Shown here: in pieces, positions 1-38,672 of the stretch
How positions within the stretch are numbered: the stretch's first letter is position 1
Layout of the letters: each line of letters starts with the position of its first letter
Source: an uncultured Chitinophaga sp.
Lineage (GTDB): Bacteria; Bacteroidota; Bacteroidia; NS11-12g; UBA9320
NCBI GenBank assembly: GCA_964355045.1
Contig: CAYHCM010000004.1
Span: 16,474-56,143, forward strand
DNA length: 39,670 nucleotides
Direction: 5' to 3'
Notes under the pieces: model-generated
What the model was told of the DNA's origin: nothing
What the model saw: the letters and a program-made list of their open reading frames with translations, nothing else
Database searches by the model: none
Position numbers and translations under genes: made by a program

Positions 1-725
1 ATTTGAAGATTTGAAAAGGCAGAATCTTAATAACTGGCAGAATGCAGTCCCCCTTGTGAAATGGACTTGTGAAAAGGCGAAGGGGGTAGGGGGATGAATA
101 AGAATTTACGATTTTAGATTTACGATTTACGATTTGGAAAGAAGGCGATTTGAAGATTTGAAAAGGCAGAATCTTAATAACTGGCAGAATGCAGTCCCCC
201 TTGTGAAATGGACTTGTGAAAAGGCGAAGGGGGTAGGGGGATGAATAAGAATTTACGATTTTAGATTTACGATTTACGATTTGGAAAGAAGGCGATTTGA
301 AGATTTGAAAAGGCAGAATCTTAATAACTGGCAGAATGCAGTCCCCCTTGTGAAATGGACTTGTGAAAAGGCGAAGGGGGTAGGGGGATGAATAAGAATT
401 TACGATTTTAGATTTACGATTTACGATTTGGAAAGAAGGCGATTTGAAGATTTGAAAAGGCAGAATCTTAATAACTGGCAGAATGCAGTCCCCCTTGTGA
501 AATGGACTTGTGAAAAGGCGAAGGGGGTAGGGGGATGAATAAGAATTTACGATTTTAGATTTACGATTTACGATTTGGAAAGAAGGCGATTTGAAGATTT
601 GAAAAGGCAGAATCTTAATAACTGGCAGAATGCAGTCCCCCTTGTGAAATGGCCTTGTGAATTGGAGAAGGGGGTAGGGGGATGTTACGATTTTAGATTT
701 ATCATTTACAATTTGAAAACGATTT
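1..725. repeat. Tandem array of 147-bp units (4 identical + 1 degenerate), truncated by the window edge
   Basis: ATTTGAAGATTTGAAAAGGCAG... recurs at 1, 148, 295, 442 and 589. The fifth copy diverges from 653 and decays by ~725. No long ORF. Confidence 0.97.
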
Positions 726-773
726 ATGGCAAAGTAATCCTCCTTTTGAAATATCCTTGTTAACAGACGAATC

Positions 774-808
774 AACATAGAACTCAGAACAAAGAACTTA
801 GAACTTTT
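774..808. repeat. Heptamer tract AACnnAG x5
   Basis: AACATAG AACTCAG AACAAAG AACTTAG AACTTTT, abutting the stop codon at 808. Confidence 0.8.
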
Positions 809-1098
809 TACCATATAAACATATAAACGATAAACAACCCGTAAAATATGGTAGCCATCAATATTCCTTTGGGAAGAAGGGTGAACCCCGTATTAAAGGT
901 TAACAGAAATATGGCGAGATTGCCAATTAATCCAATCCTTAAAAAGGCGGATAACAAACGATTTTTAAATAATTTAAAAACAAACTCAAAAAAAGAGTCC
1001 GCAATATTTCCCTCTATATACAATGCCAAAATAACTAAAATTGGAATTAATGTTCCAATAATTGCGCCAATCCAAAGTTTTTCAAATTTTGCTTTCAA
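808..1098 (-). CDS. Small hypothetical membrane protein (~3 TM)
   Basis: 96-aa hydrophobic ORF; its TTG start overlaps the surE stop (TTGA). Confidence 0.8.
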   Translation of the reverse strand: MKAKFEKLWIGAIIGTLIPILVILALYIEGNIADSFFEFVFKLFKNRLLSAFLRIGLIGNLAIFLLTFNTGFTLLPKGILMATIFYGLFIVYMFIW

Positions 1099-1859
1099 AA
1101 GTTCCAGGTATTAAGGGTGGCTATGGCATGATGAGCAGTTAAATCAAACTGGGTTGGAACCACGGAAACAAATCCGTTGGCAAGCGCCCATTCATCTGTA
1201 TCTTCGCCGTGGTCGGTATTCACAAATTTTCCGGTAAGCCAGTAATACTTTCGTTGGTGTGGGTCGGTGCGTTCATCAAATTCTTCTACCCATTTGGCTT
1301 TGGCCTGACGGCAAATTTTTAATCCTTTTATTTCAGCCACGCCAAGTTGAGGAATATTTACATTTAATAAAGTTCCAATGGGTAAACCTTTTAACAATAC
1401 CTGCGATGCAATAAGTTTTGCAAAATGGGAAGCTGCCGTAAAATCAGCATCAAACTTATAATCATTCAACGAAAAGCCTATGGCATTTATGCCTTCAATA
1501 GCCCCTTCTACCGCAGCGCTAATGGTTCCGCTGTATATTACATTGATGGAAGAATTGGAACCATGATTAATTCCTGAAACCAACAAATCAGGCCGACGGT
1601 GCATTACTTTATCCACAGCCAGTTTTACACAATCGGCCGGTGTGCCGCTACATTGGTATGCTTCAACATCTTCAAACAAATGAACTTTTTCCATCCTGAG
1701 CGGTTGGTTCATGGTAATGGCATGACCCATTCCGCTTTGAGGGCTATCGGGAGCTACCACTATTACCCGCCCCAACGATTTCATACTGGCAATAAGGGCA
1801 GCAATTCCGGGGGCAGTAATGCCATCGTCGTTGCTGATGAGTATGAGAGGCTGATCCAT
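1095..1859 (-). CDS. surE: 5'/3'-nucleotidase SurE
   Basis: Motifs ISNDDG, GTPADCV, SGINHGSN, YSGT. Confidence 0.97.
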   Translation of the reverse strand: MDQPLILISNDDGITAPGIAALIASMKSLGRVIVVAPDSPQSGMGHAITMNQPLRMEKVHLFEDVEAYQCSGTPADCVKLAVDKVMHRRPDLLVSGINHGSNSSINVIYSGTISAAVEGAIEGINAIGFSLNDYKFDADFTAASHFAKLIASQVLLKGLPIGTLLNVNIPQLGVAEIKGLKICRQAKAKWVEEFDERTDPHQRKYYWLTGKFVNTDHGEDTDEWALANGFVSVVPTQFDLTAHHAIATLNTWNF

Positions 1860-2354: not shown

Positions 2355-4709
2355 TTATAATTGATTAATGAGTTCTTCTTTAATGGAAAATATTCGGGCT
2401 GCAAAATTGTCTTTTTTATCCGGATTTTGCAACATTAATTTTTCATAGATTTCGAGTGATTTATGTAAATGCCCCTGCTTGTAAAAAAGGTTTGCCAACG
2501 TTTCACTTGCCACTTCGCCATGAAATTCTTCACTTTTACGGGCCATGTTTTCAGGTTTGTAAAATTCAGTTTTGGTTCTTGATATACTTGGATTTTTTTT
2601 GATAAACCGGTCTAAGAGGTCATCAATGGCTAATTTTGAGCTTGCTTTAGTCTGAGATATTTTTTGATCATTATCATCAGGATGCTTTACAAAGGCTTGT
2701 ATTTCATAAGCAATTTCAGCCCAGGCTGCCGGGTCGTAATCGGGTTCGTGTTCACCGATATCTTCATCAAAATTTAAAGGAATATACTCAGGGGCATTTT
2801 CATTAGCCGGCTCTGAAAGTATAATTTCAATTTCTTCATTATTTGTTTCACTATTTGTTTCCTGTACAGTTTCAGTTTTTAATTCATAAGGTTCTGTTTC
2901 AATATCAATCTCATTTGAGAAATTATCGAGCCAACTGTTAAAATCCTTTACATTATCTTCACTATCTGAAGTCAATGCAGGTGTTTCAGGTTTTTCGATT
3001 TCGGGTGATTCTCCGGTAATTTCAGTTTGGATTTCCGGAACATCTAAATCTTCAATTGTTTCAACTTCGTCACTAATTTCGGATCCTTCAATGGCTTCCT
3101 GTGTGATAACTTCGTCAGAAGGTAAAATAATATTGTCGCCAATTTCTTGCTTAGTTTCCGGTTCTTCACCAATTTCTACCGGCTTTTCGTCGGTAATTAC
3201 TTCCGCTTTGGTTTCTGAAATTTCTTCAATCGTTTCTTCTGTCGCAATTGGTAAAATATCATTTATTTCAGCAATTTCTTCGATTGCTTTATCGGGTATT
3301 TCAGGAACACTTGAATCCTCAGTTGTTTCAACTTCATCACTAATTACGGGTTCTTCAACGATTTCCTCCTTTCTGATTTCTTCCTCAAGTAAAGTTATTT
3401 CATCGTCAATTACTTGCTGAGTTTCCGGTTCTTCACCAATTTCTATAGGCTTTTTGTCGACAATTGCCTTCGGTTTGGTTTCTGAAATTTCTTCAATTAT
3501 TTCTTCTGCAGCAATTGGTAAAATATCATTTATTTCAGCAATTTCTTCGATTGCTTTATCGGGTATTTCAGGAACACTTGAATCCTCAGTTGTTTCAACT
3601 TCATCACTAATTACGGGTTCTTCAATGATTTCCTGTTTGCTGATTTCTTCAGTAAGTAAAGTTATTTCATCGCCAATTTCTTGCTGAGTTTCCTGTTCTT
3701 CACTAATTACTTCCTGCTTTCCGTCGGTAATTGCTTCCGGTTTGGTTTCTGAAATTTCTTCAATCGTTTCTTCTGTCGCAATTGGTAAAATATCATTTAT
3801 TTCAGCAATTTCTTCGATTGCTTTATCGGGTATTTCTGGAACACTTGAATCCTCAGTTGTTTCAACTTCATCACTTATTACGGGTTTTTCAAGGATTTCC
3901 TCTTTATTGATTTCTTCTTCAAGTAAAGTTATCTCATCGCCAATTTCTTGCTGAGTTTCCTGTTCTTCACTAATTTCTACAGGCTTTTCGTCGGTAATTG
4001 CTTCCGGTTTGGTTTCTGAAATTTCTTCAATTATTTCTTCTGCGGAAATTGGTAAAATATCTTTTATTTCAGCAATTTCTTCGATTGCTTTATCGGGTAT
4101 TTCAGGAATTAAAGTTTTGTCAACTTCGGGGGTAATTTCAATTGTTGGTGGCACTTTGGGTTTAACAACAACTTCAAATATTGAATTTTTACGGGAAACA
4201 GATTCATTGGATTCGGTTGGTTCTTCAATTTCTTCTTTGGCTTCATGGTTTTTATCCGAACTAATCGTAAGCACCTGAGATACCTCTGGAATTATTTCCG
4301 AAAGATCTGTATGTGTTTTGTCATCACTTCCTGCTTGTTCACTAATTTCTTCAATACTTGCCAGTACAAGGGATTCAATTTGTTCATTAATTGGTTCAGG
4401 TATTTTTTCACTAATTTCAATACTGTGTTCAGATACTTCGTCAATTTTTATTTCTGATTTTAGCTCCGGTTCATAATTCATAAAATCATAAAGAACCTGT
4501 CGGTCGCCGGCATACAGGGAGGCTAATTTCAGGTTTTTGTTAAATCCAAAAGTTCCCTGGTTTTTATGGCATTTGGCTACAAGTATATGGAGAGCTTGAA
4601 AATAAGGATATTTTTCGCGTAAAACCTCTAAGTCATCCGCATCATGACGACCAAGCTGAGTTGAATTGGCGATATATTCCTGAATGTTTTCCACTATGTT
4701 TTTTACCAA
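2355..4709 (-). CDS. Conserved Bacteroidota protein with C-terminal TPR-like helix and a long acidic repeat linker
   Basis: N-terminal KYPYFQ...YAGDRQVLY and C-terminal SETLANLFYKQG...NPDKK motifs; lies between lptE and secG. Confidence 0.85.
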   Translation of the reverse strand: MVKNIVENIQEYIANSTQLGRHDADDLEVLREKYPYFQALHILVAKCHKNQGTFGFNKNLKLASLYAGDRQVLYDFMNYEPELKSEIKIDEVSEHSIEISEKIPEPINEQIESLVLASIEEISEQAGSDDKTHTDLSEIIPEVSQVLTISSDKNHEAKEEIEEPTESNESVSRKNSIFEVVVKPKVPPTIEITPEVDKTLIPEIPDKAIEEIAEIKDILPISAEEIIEEISETKPEAITDEKPVEISEEQETQQEIGDEITLLEEEINKEEILEKPVISDEVETTEDSSVPEIPDKAIEEIAEINDILPIATEETIEEISETKPEAITDGKQEVISEEQETQQEIGDEITLLTEEISKQEIIEEPVISDEVETTEDSSVPEIPDKAIEEIAEINDILPIAAEEIIEEISETKPKAIVDKKPIEIGEEPETQQVIDDEITLLEEEIRKEEIVEEPVISDEVETTEDSSVPEIPDKAIEEIAEINDILPIATEETIEEISETKAEVITDEKPVEIGEEPETKQEIGDNIILPSDEVITQEAIEGSEISDEVETIEDLDVPEIQTEITGESPEIEKPETPALTSDSEDNVKDFNSWLDNFSNEIDIETEPYELKTETVQETNSETNNEEIEIILSEPANENAPEYIPLNFDEDIGEHEPDYDPAAWAEIAYEIQAFVKHPDDNDQKISQTKASSKLAIDDLLDRFIKKNPSISRTKTEFYKPENMARKSEEFHGEVASETLANLFYKQGHLHKSLEIYEKLMLQNPDKKDNFAARIFSIKEELINQL
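3039..4106 (-). repeat. Four in-frame 267-bp (89-aa) coding tandem repeats
   Basis: PEIPDKAIEEIAEI... units start at 4106, 3839, 3572 and 3305. Confidence 0.95.
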
Positions 4710-8140: not shown

Positions 8141-8230
8141 TTTCACGCAAAGGCGCAAAGACGCTAAGTTTATCATGAAATATGACGGGCAAGGTTATTT
8201 TTCTTTGCGCCTTTGCGCCTTTGCGTGAAA
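8141..8230. repeat. 90-bp fold-back element with 28-bp inverted arms built from GCGCAAAG octamers
   Basis: 8141-8168 matches the reverse complement of 8203-8230 at 26/28. Confidence 0.9.
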
Positions 8231-23107: not shown

Positions 23108-23285
23108 TGAAGGGGAAATTTGAAATTGGAAAATTGAAATTTTAGTTCTGTCACAAATGTCTATTCTGCCACCAAAACACAAAAATCACAAAATTTTGCT
23201 AAAATTATTATTTTTGCATTTAAGCGTTAGGGCATGGACACCATACCAATTTCAAAACAGATAACTTTTATTCTTAGCATTAAAA

Positions 23286-23439
23286 TCGACAGATTCACAG
23301 ATTAAAAATTTTTTCAGATTAAATCAGATTAAAAAATAGTTCCTATTTTTTGTCGTAAAAGTATTTTTCACAATGACAAATTTTAATTTGTCCTATCTGA
23401 TTTAATCCCTTGTTAATTTTTAATCTGAGAATCTGTGGC
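23286..23439. mobile_element. ~154-bp MITE-like or structured element, copy 1
   Basis: Terminal inverted repeats ACAGATTCACAGATTAAAAATT / AATTTTTAATCTGAGAATCTGTGGC; homologous to 38471-38623. Confidence 0.75.
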
Positions 23440-23545
23440 ATAATTTAGTTATTTGGTAGGTTTTTGGTTTATCAATATGTTGTCTCCCAATGGTGAGATT
23501 AAACTTGGATCTTAATTTTTGTAATTTGGAATTTGGAATTTCCAA

Positions 23546-38394: not shown

Positions 38395-38470
38395 GTTTTC
38401 GTAAATCAGAATTGTGAATATTCAGAGGATACTAAGTGGTTAGGTTTGGAAATAATACCCAGCTTTAACA

Positions 38471-38623
38471 GCCACAGATTCACAGATTAAAAATTGTTTC
38501 AGATTAAATCAGATTTAAAAATATTTCATATTTTTTTTGTGAAAATATTTTGAAAAAAGATAAATTTTAATTTGTCCTATCTGATTTAATTCCCTGAAAA
38601 TTTTTAATCTGAGAATCTGTGGC
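38471..38623. mobile_element. 153-bp MITE-like or structured element, copy 2
   Basis: 25-bp terminal inverted repeats GCCACAGATTCACAGATTAAAAATT (24/25) and an inner 12-bp inverted repeat. Confidence 0.8.
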
Positions 38624-38672
38624 ATATGGTAGGCAGAAGAAGTACTTAACAGGCAACAGCCCTACAAGGCTA

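What the first reader, a model, noticed from the sequence alone, without database searches (positions are those of the whole stretch)
1..725. Non-coding array of identical 147-bp composite units
Seen: at least four identical 147-bp units, a fifth diverged copy, no spacers and no ORF across units. Each unit is a mosaic of three parts: a GATTTGAA octamer pair; a REP-like stem (CCCCCTT 49-55 / AAGGGGG 80-86) overlapping a 13-nt internal duplication (CTTGTGAAATGGA / CTTGTGAAAAGGC); and a GATTTAC heptamer tract. In the fifth copy the hairpin changes fall in the loop and the stem is intact. The array lies downstream of the surE operon with no obvious terminator between them. Inference: a recently amplified REP/BIME-like module, or a multimeric structured-RNA precursor whose partner gene lies left of the window.
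Basis: partly seen in the sequence, partly recalled or inferred. Interest (0 to 1): 0.75.

Follow-up and report, generated by a model that had tools for sequence, protein, structure and literature searches.

The report
Tandem array of triplex-motif and heptamer repeats
A stretch between two housekeeping genes holds several head-to-tail copies of a 147-base unit built from two kinds of selfish-looking DNA repeat that are scattered through this genome, each kind with its own small partner gene elsewhere; how many copies there really are cannot be read from this assembly.

Summary
The array is real as sequence: 4 identical 147-bp units (1-588), a diverged fifth (589-725) and a decayed sixth start (about 729-757). 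It abuts a 100-N scaffold gap. The 55 bases before the gap equal window 1-55, a k=55 graph-overlap signature, so the assembled copy number is not reliable. Contig depths in two other samples hint at roughly 2-4 copies.

"No ORF across units" is wrong: the minus strand is open from 814 to 2.

The "REP-like stem" is the first two thirds of CCCCCTT-loop-AAGGGGG-TA-GGGGGAT. This is a class II intrastrand-triplex motif of the BoxC/PIT/TM kind, with an unusually long first loop. G000 holds 86 copies in two subfamilies. Each subfamily brackets its own DUF559 nuclease gene, and all 14 DUF559 genes in the genus are bracketed this way.

The heptamer tract is identical to the inverted arms around a four-helix-bundle (PF05635) gene.

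Six congeners have only 69-152 bp at this site and no hairpin.

Best reading: a triplex-motif element lying in a heptamer tract, amplified by exchange between the flanking tracts. No support for a structured-RNA precursor or a RAYT link.

The scan has already noted both repeat-gene pairings on other genomes.

The parts
1..588 (+). Four identical 147-bp units (1-147, 148-294, 295-441, 442-588); the first begins directly after a 100-N scaffold gap
589..725 (+). Fifth, diverged unit: same spacer and stems, 4 loop changes, 9-nt deletion after GGGGGATG, heptamer tract 84% alike
726..760 (+). Decayed start of a sixth copy (TCCTCCTTTTGAAATATCCTTGT against TCCCCCTTGTGAAATGGCCTTGT), with no purine blocks left
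1..15 (+). GATTTGAA octamer pair (complete at 147-162, 294-309, 441-456, 588-603); same words as the arms of the four-helix-bundle gene at G000:C5:41549-41848
16..48 (+). Spacer AAGGCAGAATCTTAATAACTGGCAGAATGCAGT; found only at this locus in the genome (6 BLAST hits, all in or beside the array)
49..55 (+). Pyrimidine block CCCCCTT of the triplex motif (also at +147, +294, +441, +588)
56..79 (+). Long first loop (24 nt); with the stem's last three bases it forms the two 13-nt repeats at 53-65 and 66-78
80..86 (+). Purine block AAGGGGG (Watson-Crick partner of 49-55)
89..95 (+). Second purine block GGGGGAT, mirror image of 80-86 after a TA loop; would give 5 G.G:C, 1 A.A:T and 1 T.A:T triads
   Evidence: rule from PMC4666352
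104..135 (+). Heptamer tract ATTTACG/ATTTTAG x4.6 (also at 251, 398, 545; diverged at 683-714); 31 of 31 identical to an arm of the four-helix-bundle gene at G000:C153
2..814 (-). Open frame through the whole array. Its ATG overlaps the stop of the 96-aa ORF, and it ends about 50 nt before the lpxB ATG in the left flank. No real Pfam match
808..1098 (-). 96-aa membrane-like ORF, conserved next to lpxB in 6 congeners
1095..1859 (-). surE

Best explanation
The array is non-coding repeat DNA in the spacer between a 96-aa ORF and lpxB, which form a surE-ORF96-lpxB run on the minus strand. Its unit joins members of two genome-wide repeat families.

(a) A triplex-motif element. It is CCCCCTT-loop-AAGGGGG-TA-GGGGGAT, a class II purine-motif intrastrand triplex layout like BoxC/PIT/TM_ECO, here in a long-loop form. 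It belongs to the subfamily that brackets the DUF559 nuclease gene on scaffold C203.

(b) Heptamer/octamer tracts of the kinds that form the inverted arms of four-helix-bundle (PF05635) genes.

Inferred history. A triplex-motif element came to lie inside a heptamer tract upstream of lpxB, so that like tracts flanked it as direct repeats. Replication slippage or unequal exchange between those tracts then duplicated the 147-bp segment repeatedly. Old copies decay at the ORF96 end and identical young ones sit at the lpxB end. The non-B structure of the motif may add to the instability.

Shown: the anatomy, the family memberships, the partner genes, and the empty site in relatives. Inferred: the insertion, the exchange mechanism, triplex formation, and any role of DUF559 in spreading the motif. 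The true copy number is open: at least 2, with depth hints of about 2-4.
For: Motif and family.
- 86 copies are in G000.
- 69 of 71 short C5TT/AAG5 hairpins carry the second G5 run 1-3 nt downstream, and 86 of 97 G5-N1-3-G5 motifs have a C5 within 50 nt upstream.
- The exact 16-mer of subfamily A occurs 39 times in G000, in 5 of 10 congeners (3-7 copies each) and in 0 of 50 genomes of other genera of the family.
- Subfamily B occurs 34 times in G000 and in 2 of 10 congeners.

Partner genes.
- G000 has 2 DUF559 genes. C203 is bracketed by inverted subfamily-A copies and C212 by inverted subfamily-B copies.
- All 14 DUF559 hits in 7 of 11 genomes of the genus are bracketed by inverted hairpin repeats whose sequence matches between the two flanks. 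In the 10 hits of G000, G002, G007, G009 and G010 these are clear C-run/G-run/G-run motifs; in the 4 hits of G004 and G006 they are other GC-rich types.

Layout. It fits the published class II definition and shares the TTA/short second loop of TM_ECO.

Heptamers.
- 569 tracts of period 7/8, 478 of them outside crude ORFs.
- All 9 PF05635 genes have inverted flank matches above the 99th percentile of 344 control genes.
- The C153 arm is identical to window 545-575.

Motif next to tracts. 27 of 81 motifs outside the array have a tract within 120 nt, against 8.7% of 4853 random intergenic points. Tract-motif-tract layouts occur at C2, C12 and C85.

Empty site. 6 of 6 congeners with the locus have 69-152 bp between ORF96 and lpxB. 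Three of them carry a heptamer tract beside lpxB. None has the hairpin.

Array ends. The array begins and ends in a heptamer tract, with a diverged fifth and a decayed sixth copy at one end.

Recurrence. Further motif-bearing tandem arrays lie at C47 (109 bp x2.6; 103 bp), C96 (93 bp x4.5) and C109 (48 bp x2). Three of the five arrays (those at C4, C47 and C109) touch gaps.

Independent samples. Logan contigs of X3 and X4 hold the unit-type hairpin and the unit-unit junction. Their depths are 12.2 and 18.3 against a flank of 5.1 in X3, and 15.3 and 24 against 6.32 in X4. Each sample has its own single-base variant, which covers all the depth laid at that place.
Against: - Copy number rests on an assembler's traversal of a k=55 loop. 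Contig depths are one figure per contig, include highly repeated end k-mers, and give only rough ratios.
Triplex formation by the array copies is therefore less likely than for the short copies.
- Co-occurrence of motif and DUF559 is imperfect. G008 (99% complete) has 4 subfamily-A copies and no DUF559. G004 and G006 have DUF559 genes with other flanking repeats and no A or B copies.
- No insertion event, target duplication or empty-site allele was caught: there were no joints, and the relatives are too diverged to fix boundaries.
- The motif shows strand bias relative to genes (48 co-directional against 14 opposite, binomial p 1.7e-5). This hints at an RNA- or transcription-level role that this reading does not explain, and the array is in the minority orientation.
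- The open minus-strand frame is unlikely by chance (63 of 20,000 shuffles).
Confidence: 0.68

Rival explanations
1. Assembly artefact: the genome has only one identical unit plus the diverged one, and the four identical copies are an unrolled loop of the assembly graph at a contig end.
For: The four copies are 100% identical and abut a 100-N gap. The 55 nt before the gap equal window 1-55 and recur at 148, 295, 442 and 589, and 59 of 139 gaps show the same k=55 overlap. 588 bp of identical repeat is about one short-read insert length (inference).
Against: In two other samples the unit-type hairpin contig has 2.4 times the flank depth and the junction contig 3.6-3.8 times; these ratios are rough. 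Diverged fifth and decayed sixth copies show repeated duplication over time. Similar arrays occur at three other loci.
Confidence: 0.15
2. The minus-strand frame is used. Ribosomes read from the ATG that overlaps the ORF96 stop, through every unit, to about 50 nt before lpxB. This either makes a 49-aa-repeat protein or simply keeps the inserted stretch translated, so that transcription reaches lpxB without Rho-type polarity.
For: The period is a multiple of three. The frame is open over the 373-nt non-redundant part in only 63 of 20,000 dinucleotide shuffles, and any of the three frames in 164 of 20,000. The ATG overlaps the ORF96 stop, and the frame stops in the left flank shortly before the lpxB ATG. 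No terminator-like site lies between ORF96 and the array, and the unit's minus strand contains no TTTG, the core I recall for Bacteroidota promoters (read). An RNA library holds contigs on 477-678.
Against: No real Pfam match (one hit below the cut-off). The segment is absent from 6 congeners. The unit alone has an open frame in 44% of shuffles. Other motif arrays have periods of 109, 103 and 93 with no frame logic. The RNA contigs carry no strand and may be DNA carry-over.
Confidence: 0.08
3. REP/BIME element tied to a RAYT (Y1 tyrosine transposase).
For: It is a dispersed intergenic palindrome with a conserved flank.
Against: The palindromes beside the Y1_Tnp genes at C72 and C30 are different sequences. 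The C5/G5 motif brackets DUF559 genes instead. The array has one orientation only, unlike BIME mosaics.
Confidence: 0.04
4. Multimeric structured-RNA precursor or small-RNA gene array.
For: A stem is kept in the diverged copy. An RNA library holds contigs over 477-678 while none cover 702-1233. The motif family is biased toward the sense orientation.
Against: No Rfam match at E up to 1 in 1-2500, and none at E up to 0.01 in 8 other motif loci. Unit fold z-scores are -0.89 and -1.40. One third of the unit is locus-specific. The unit is not conserved in 10 congeners. The stem never varies, so there is no covariation to count.
Confidence: 0.03

Closest known systems
BoxC / PIT elements / TM_ECO: class II purine-motif intrastrand triplex repeats (Holder et al. 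2015, PMC4666352; sections 15, 16, 19 and passages read. Hoyne et al. 2000 known only through that paper)
   Same: Both have a pyrimidine block, a short loop, a purine block, a 2-3-nt loop (TTA in subfamily B as in TM_ECO type A) and a mirrored purine block. Both are tens of near-identical intergenic copies, with copy numbers that differ sharply between close relatives and loci prone to rearrangement.
   Different: The stems are 7 nt (C5TT), not 9 nt (CCCTCNCCC), so the published consensus is not met. The host is a Bacteroidota genus, not Proteobacteria or Cyanobacteria. Copies here are direct tandem, whereas the paper reports tandem inverted pairs. There is strand bias relative to genes here and none reported in E. 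coli. The paper names no partner gene (0 occurrences of 'DUF559' or 'endonuclease').
REP/REPIN sequences with their RAYT transposase
   Same: The logic is the same: a small nuclease-type gene is bracketed by inverted copies of a hairpin repeat that also occurs in many gene-less copies, with subfamily matching between gene and repeat.
   Different: The gene is DUF559 (Vsr-like PD-(D/E)xK fold by Pfam name), not a Y1 HUH transposase. The RAYT-type genes of this genome carry other palindromes. Mobilisation by DUF559 is not shown.
ORF-carrying intervening sequences of 23S rRNA (S23p/PF05635; Warrier et al. 2016, PMC4990558, abstract only) and cyanobacterial STRR heptamer repeats (recalled, no call)
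   Same: The heptamer tracts in the unit are the same words as the inverted arms around PF05635 genes of this genome. They are abundant intergenic 7-mers.
   Different: In the array the tracts are solo and direct, with no inverted partner and no gene, and they lie in a protein-gene spacer, not in rRNA.
Tandem duplication between flanking direct repeats (slipped-strand or unequal exchange; textbook mechanism)
   Same: The array has the form (tract-X)n-tract, with identical inner copies and diverged outer ones.
   Different: The exchange itself has not been observed.

Membership tests
Class II intrastrand triplex motif (ITxF / PIT definition, PMC4666352) | Order 5' pyrimidine block, purine block, reverse-Hoogsteen block on one strand | tested here: met
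   49-55 CCCCCTT, 80-86 AAGGGGG, 89-95 GGGGGAT; definition
Class II intrastrand triplex motif (ITxF / PIT definition, PMC4666352) | Stems of 6-15 nt giving C-G-G, T-A-A or T-A-T triads (one mismatch allowed from 7 nt) | tested here: met
   7 triads without mismatch, read against the rule
Class II intrastrand triplex motif (ITxF / PIT definition, PMC4666352) | Loops of 1-6 nt (ITxF) or 0-10 nt (Hoyne et al.) | tested here: not met
   The second loop is 2 nt, but the first loop is 24 nt in all array copies. The limit is met by the 69 short copies elsewhere in G000
Class II intrastrand triplex motif (ITxF / PIT definition, PMC4666352) | Triplex folding shown by CD, NMR or melting | not testable with these tools
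   The ViennaRNA DNA fold models only hairpins
TM_ECO / BoxC | Consensus CCCTCNCCC N3-6 GGGNGAGGG N3 GGGNGAGGG | tested here: not met
   The blocks here are C5TT / AAG5 / G5AT
DUF559-bracketing repeat (pairing noted by this scan; not found in print) | A DUF559 gene flanked by inverted copies of the same motif subfamily | tested here: met
   G000:C203:4077-4394 lies between subfamily-A copies at 4012-4035 (+) and 4430-4452 (-). 14 of 14 DUF559 hits in the genus are bracketed by matched inverted hairpin repeats
REP / REPIN with RAYT | A Y1 transposase gene flanked by the same palindrome | tested here: not met
   The Y1_Tnp genes at C72 and C30 have other flanking palindromes
BIME | Mosaic of REPs in alternating orientation | tested here: not met
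   All five copies are direct, with spacing 147
Heptamer arms of PF05635 (four-helix-bundle) cassettes | The same heptamer words form inverted arms around a PF05635 gene | tested here: met
   The C153 arm is 31 of 31 identical to window 545-575. 9 of 9 genes score above the 99th percentile of controls. In the array the tracts themselves are solo and direct
CRISPR array | Repeats separated by unique spacers | tested here: not met
   The whole 147-bp unit repeats with no unique spacers
Any Rfam RNA family | Covariance-model match | tested here: not met
   three matches at E 0.14-0.86, all outside the array and far below gathering; none

The most novel reading that the evidence does not exclude
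The unit marks where two gene-plus-repeat systems meet. Triplex-motif elements (partner: DUF559 nuclease) settle preferentially in the heptamer tracts that belong to four-helix-bundle gene cassettes. The resulting tract-motif-tract structure is a built-in amplification substrate. Here the expansion inside the surE-ORF96-lpxB run has been shaped to stay translatable, so that the essential lpxB is still expressed. If so, the matched subfamilies A and B, each with its own DUF559 gene in one genome, would be REP/RAYT-like evidence that DUF559 is the enzyme that spreads BoxC-type repeats.
Probability: 0.2. Interest if true: 0.65.

Novelty: new variant of a known kind. Interest (0 to 1): 0.5.

Why it matters
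BoxC/PIT/TM repeats have been known for decades without a function or a partner enzyme (PMC4666352, read here). This genome shows two matched repeat subfamilies, each bracketing its own DUF559 gene. It also shows a long-loop variant and direct tandem amplification next to heptamer tracts, which gives a concrete picture of how such motifs make loci unstable. On the practical side, arrays like this break short-read assemblies: 6 of 139 gaps have a motif within 150 nt, and 3 of the 5 motif arrays touch a gap. Copy numbers at such contig ends should not be trusted. The array itself is probably of little consequence to the cell beyond its possible effect on lpxB expression.

Tried and rejected
- Rfam over 1-2500 and over 8 other motif loci: nothing usable.
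- The RAYT link was tested and rejected.
- Partner genes on scaffold C4, to the left of the window: none of PF04480, PF01797, PF05635 or PF00078.
- Reading the motif as a small-peptide gene was rejected because loop lengths and upstream parts differ by 1-nt indels between copies.
- Reading the ATG after GGGGG as a start codon was rejected: only short frames follow.
- Sigma-70-type promoter hits on the minus strand of each unit are set aside. The count (11) is close to the shuffle mean (7.1), and I recall that the consensus does not apply to Bacteroidota.
- Attempts to find empty sites for the motif copies at C12 and C2 in congeners failed, because only one flanking gene is syntenic.
- Logan contigs gave no joint that skips the array, and parts without cover (for example RNA contigs missing on 702-1233) are not evidence.
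- My first pattern search was written so that it caught only subfamily B. It was repeated for subfamily A.
- The long-loop count used too loose a pattern and is not used.
- Literature: 'DUF559' + 'repeat' gave 18 papers, of which I saw the listing of 15. 'Intrastrand triplex' + 'bacteria' + 'repeat' gave 20 papers, 15 listed. No title or abstract start links DUF559 to such repeats. Supplements of PMC4666352 were not opened.

Full report
WHERE IT LIES

The window is G000:C4:16474-56143, one gap-to-gap piece of a scaffold. The assembly has 139 N runs, 138 of them exactly 100 N.

Directly left of window base 1 is such a gap. Left of the gap come 102 bases of repeat and then the start of lpxB on the minus strand (PF02684, 6e-86). 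Right of the array, also on the minus strand, are a 96-aa membrane-like ORF (808-1098), surE (1095-1859, PF01975) and secG. The array therefore fills the spacer ORF96-lpxB inside a co-directional gene run.

THE OBSERVATION

TRF finds period 147, 4.7 copies and 99% matches. Units 1-4 (1-588) are identical. The fifth keeps the spacer and both stems but has four loop changes, a 9-nt deletion and a diverged heptamer tract. A decayed start of a sixth copy follows at about 729-757.

Two points are wrong or missing.

First, the minus strand is open through all units, from ATG 814 to base 2 (271 aa; 147 = 49 codons).

Second, the copy number is not trustworthy. The last 55 nt before the gap equal window 1-55, and that 55-mer recurs at 148, 295, 442 and 589. 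In addition, 59 of 139 gaps in this assembly show the same exact 55-nt overlap, which is the mark of a k=55 graph. The left contig could therefore join at any unit.

INDEPENDENT SAMPLES

Only Logan contigs were on offer. Laid on 442-2000, two DNA runs from other samples (X3 from the same study, X4 from another study) each hold three relevant contigs:
- a contig of the unit-type hairpin (472-575 in X3, 463-573 in X4), at depth 12.2 and 15.3;
- a contig across the unit-unit junction (547-648 in X3, 546-639 in X4), at depth 18.3 and 24;
- a long contig from the fifth copy into surE, at depth 5.1 and 6.32.

The ratios (2.4 and 3.6-3.8) hint at roughly 2-4 copies. They are rough, because contig depth is a mean and the contig ends touch a heptamer 31-mer that is highly repeated (bin depth 275-968).

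Each sample carries its own single-base variant of the unit hairpin, and that variant covers all the depth laid at that place: 502 A>T in X3, and 493 C>T in X4 and X6. This fits copies that are homogenised or recently amplified within each lineage, although contigs drop rare variants.

One RNA library (X6) has contigs on 477-574, 546-678 and surE 1234-1728, and none listed on 702-1233. That is only a hint of transcription.

WHAT THE UNIT IS MADE OF

BLAST of one unit against the genome splits it into three parts:
- bases 1-45 occur only at this locus (6 hits);
- bases 46-96 occur at about 20 further places;
- bases 104-135 occur at about 60 further places.

THE HAIRPIN PART

Listing all copies shows a fixed motif: (G/A)TCCCCCTT, a loop, AAGGGGG, T(T)A, GGGGGAT. 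G000 has 86 copies.

Subfamily A (TA second loop...GATG) gives 39 exact 16-mer matches. Subfamily B (TTA second loop, followed by a T run) gives 34-36.

The second G run belongs to the element. It is present in 69 of 71 short C5TT/AAG5 hairpins; of the other two, one is cut by Ns and one is degenerate. In the other direction, 86 of 97 G5-N1-3-G5 motifs have a C5 within 50 nt upstream.

The third block is the mirror image of the second. In the antiparallel purine motif it would give five G.G:C triads, one A.A:T and one T.A:T.

In its text, class II is defined as a pyrimidine block, a purine block and a reverse-Hoogsteen block, with stems of 6-15 nt and loops of 1-6 nt. TM_ECO is CCCTCNCCC N3-6 GGGNGAGGG N3 GGGNGAGGG, with TTA or CCG as second loop. 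Its copy numbers differ greatly between strains, and TM loci are more rearranged than controls. No promoter or terminator activity was found, and no partner gene is named.

The short copies here meet the class II definition but not the TM_ECO consensus. The array copies have a 24-nt first loop, beyond the published limits. As a plain hairpin they are weak (-6.6 kcal/mol, z -1.66). The fold tool pairs the C run with either G run at similar cost.

Long-loop copies also occur singly at other G000 loci and in four congeners (G002, G007, G008, G009), with a conserved loop. The long loop is therefore a subfamily trait and not a peculiarity of this array.

PARTNER GENE OF THE HAIRPIN

Inverted pairs of subfamily A lie 406 bp apart in G000, G009 and G010, which led me to a small ORF between them. 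It is DUF559 (PF04480, 7.5e-27).

G000 has two DUF559 genes. C203:4077-4394 lies between inverted subfamily-A copies, and C212:1093-1419 between inverted subfamily-B copies.

Across the genus, 14 DUF559 hits in 7 of 11 genomes are all bracketed by inverted hairpin repeats whose sequence matches between the two flanks but differs between subfamilies. In G000, G002, G007, G009 and G010 (10 hits) they are clear C-run/G-run/G-run motifs. In G004 and G006 (4 hits) they are other GC-rich types.

Co-occurrence is not perfect:
- G008 (99% complete) has 4 subfamily-A copies and no DUF559.
- G002 has 7 subfamily-A copies, but its DUF559 genes carry other subfamilies.
- G004 and G006 have DUF559 genes but no A or B copies.

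The motif is restricted to the genus among those searched: 0 of 50 genomes of other genera of the family. It is expanded in G000, with 39 and 34 copies against at most 7 and 4 in congeners.

The two Y1 transposase genes of G000 are flanked by other palindromes.

This scan holds 110 earlier notes on DUF559 with flanking hairpin repeats in other genomes. Two literature searches gave no title or abstract that links them (listings only).

THE HEPTAMER PART

G000 has 569 tracts of period 7 or 8 with at least 3 copies. Of these, 478 lie outside crude ORFs, which cover 83% of the genome.

Each is flanked by inverted tracts of its own heptamer. All nine inverted-flank scores (17-29.5) exceed the 99th percentile (16.3) of 344 control genes.

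The arm of the gene at C153 is 31 of 31 identical to the array's ATTTACG/ATTTTAG tract. The arms of the gene at C5:41549 are GATTTGAA/GATTTGG words, like the unit's octamer pair. The scan holds 40 earlier notes on this cassette type.

HOW THE ARRAY AROSE (INFERENCE)

In 6 of 6 congeners that hold ORF96-lpxB, the spacer is 69-152 bp with no hairpin. The three closest carry a heptamer tract right beside lpxB.

In G000 the array has the form tract-(X-motif-tail-tract-linker)n-X-motif-tract. A heptamer tract sits at both outer ends.

Motifs lie near tracts more often than chance. Of 81 motifs outside the array, 27 have a tract within 120 nt, against 8.7% of 4853 random intergenic points; 5 of 81 have one on both sides, against 0.4%. 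Tract-motif-tract layouts recur at C2, C12 and C85.

Like tracts on both sides of an inserted element are direct repeats, the classical substrate for slippage or unequal exchange. The period equals the distance between the tracts.

Other motif-bearing arrays exist at C47, C96 and C109. Three of the five arrays touch gaps, and 6 of 139 gaps have a motif within 150 nt.

The gradient from a decayed copy at the ORF96 end to identical copies at the lpxB end fits repeated rounds of duplication.

UNEXPLAINED

The minus-strand frame is open over the 373-nt non-redundant part in only 63 of 20,000 dinucleotide-preserving shuffles (any of the three frames: 164 of 20,000). It starts at an ATG that overlaps the ORF96 stop and ends about 50 nt before the lpxB ATG. 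The unit alone is open in 44% of shuffles, and Pfam gives nothing real. I keep 'translated to avoid polarity on lpxB' as a minor rival.

The motif family is also oriented with the flanking genes (48 against 14, p 1.7e-5), unlike what the paper reports for E. coli. The array is in the minority orientation.

VERDICT

This is a real but ordinary-in-kind repeat locus. It is a tandemly amplified mosaic of a BoxC/PIT-like triplex-motif element (long-loop variant, DUF559-linked family) and heptamer tracts (PF05635-linked family), with an unreliable assembled copy number. It is not a structured-RNA array and not a RAYT-type REP. Interest is moderate. The gene-repeat pairings are the notable part, and the scan has seen them before on other DNA.

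Noticed in passing
G000:C11 (3 genes), C16, C5, C38, C17, C153, C120 (coordinates): All nine four-helix-bundle (PF05635) genes of the genome sit between inverted tracts of their own 7-8-mer repeat. The flank scores are all above the 99th percentile of 344 control genes.
   Followed up: partly
G000:C203:4077-5437; also G009:C263 and G010:C1: The subfamily-A DUF559 gene runs in one open frame (459 aa in three genomes, 516 aa in G007) into a Sua5/YciO/YrdC-family gene (PF01300). The downstream motif copy is read through as ...IPLPPSKGD....
   Followed up: partly
whole genome G000: Heptamer/octamer tracts within 60 nt upstream of crude start codons are G-poor on the sense strand in 120 cases against 44. 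Near gene ends there is no bias (101 against 127).
   Followed up: partly
whole genome G000: The triplex-motif copies are oriented with the flanking genes (48 co-directional against 14 opposite). Subfamily B is followed by a T run, so it may double as a terminator. This was not tested.
   Followed up: no
window 2355-4709 (minus strand), repeats at 3031-4108: A 784-aa acidic protein with four 267-bp (89-aa) repeats at 88% identity and no Pfam match.
   Followed up: no
window 23276-23442 and 38461-38626: Two copies (86% alike) of a ~170-nt element, each holding a 22-25-nt inverted repeat (ACAGATTCACAGATTAAAAATT...) about 104 nt apart. MITE-like.
   Followed up: no
window 8141-8230: Inverted pair of octamer tracts (ACGCAAAG / CTTTGCGC, 28-nt arms, 93% complementary, 34 nt apart). 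The AAAGACGC word family has 9 TRF arrays in the genome.
   Followed up: no
L025 (G008:C2) and L027 (G009:C188): A long-loop subfamily-A motif sits right after the stop of a gene ending ...GGMPGGMDGMM, followed by a canonical hairpin and T-run terminator, at the same place in two species. I recall that tail as GroEL-like; this was not tested.
   Followed up: no
whole assembly G000: 59 of 139 scaffold gaps have an exact 55-nt overlap between the two sides. Many of the 'gaps' are graph junctions at repeats rather than missing sequence.
   Followed up: yes
window 774-806 and 1858-1889: Further solo heptamer tracts (AACTTAG type just before the ORF96 stop; ATTTTAG type upstream of surE). Intergenic spacers of this window are generally filled with such tracts.
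   Followed up: no
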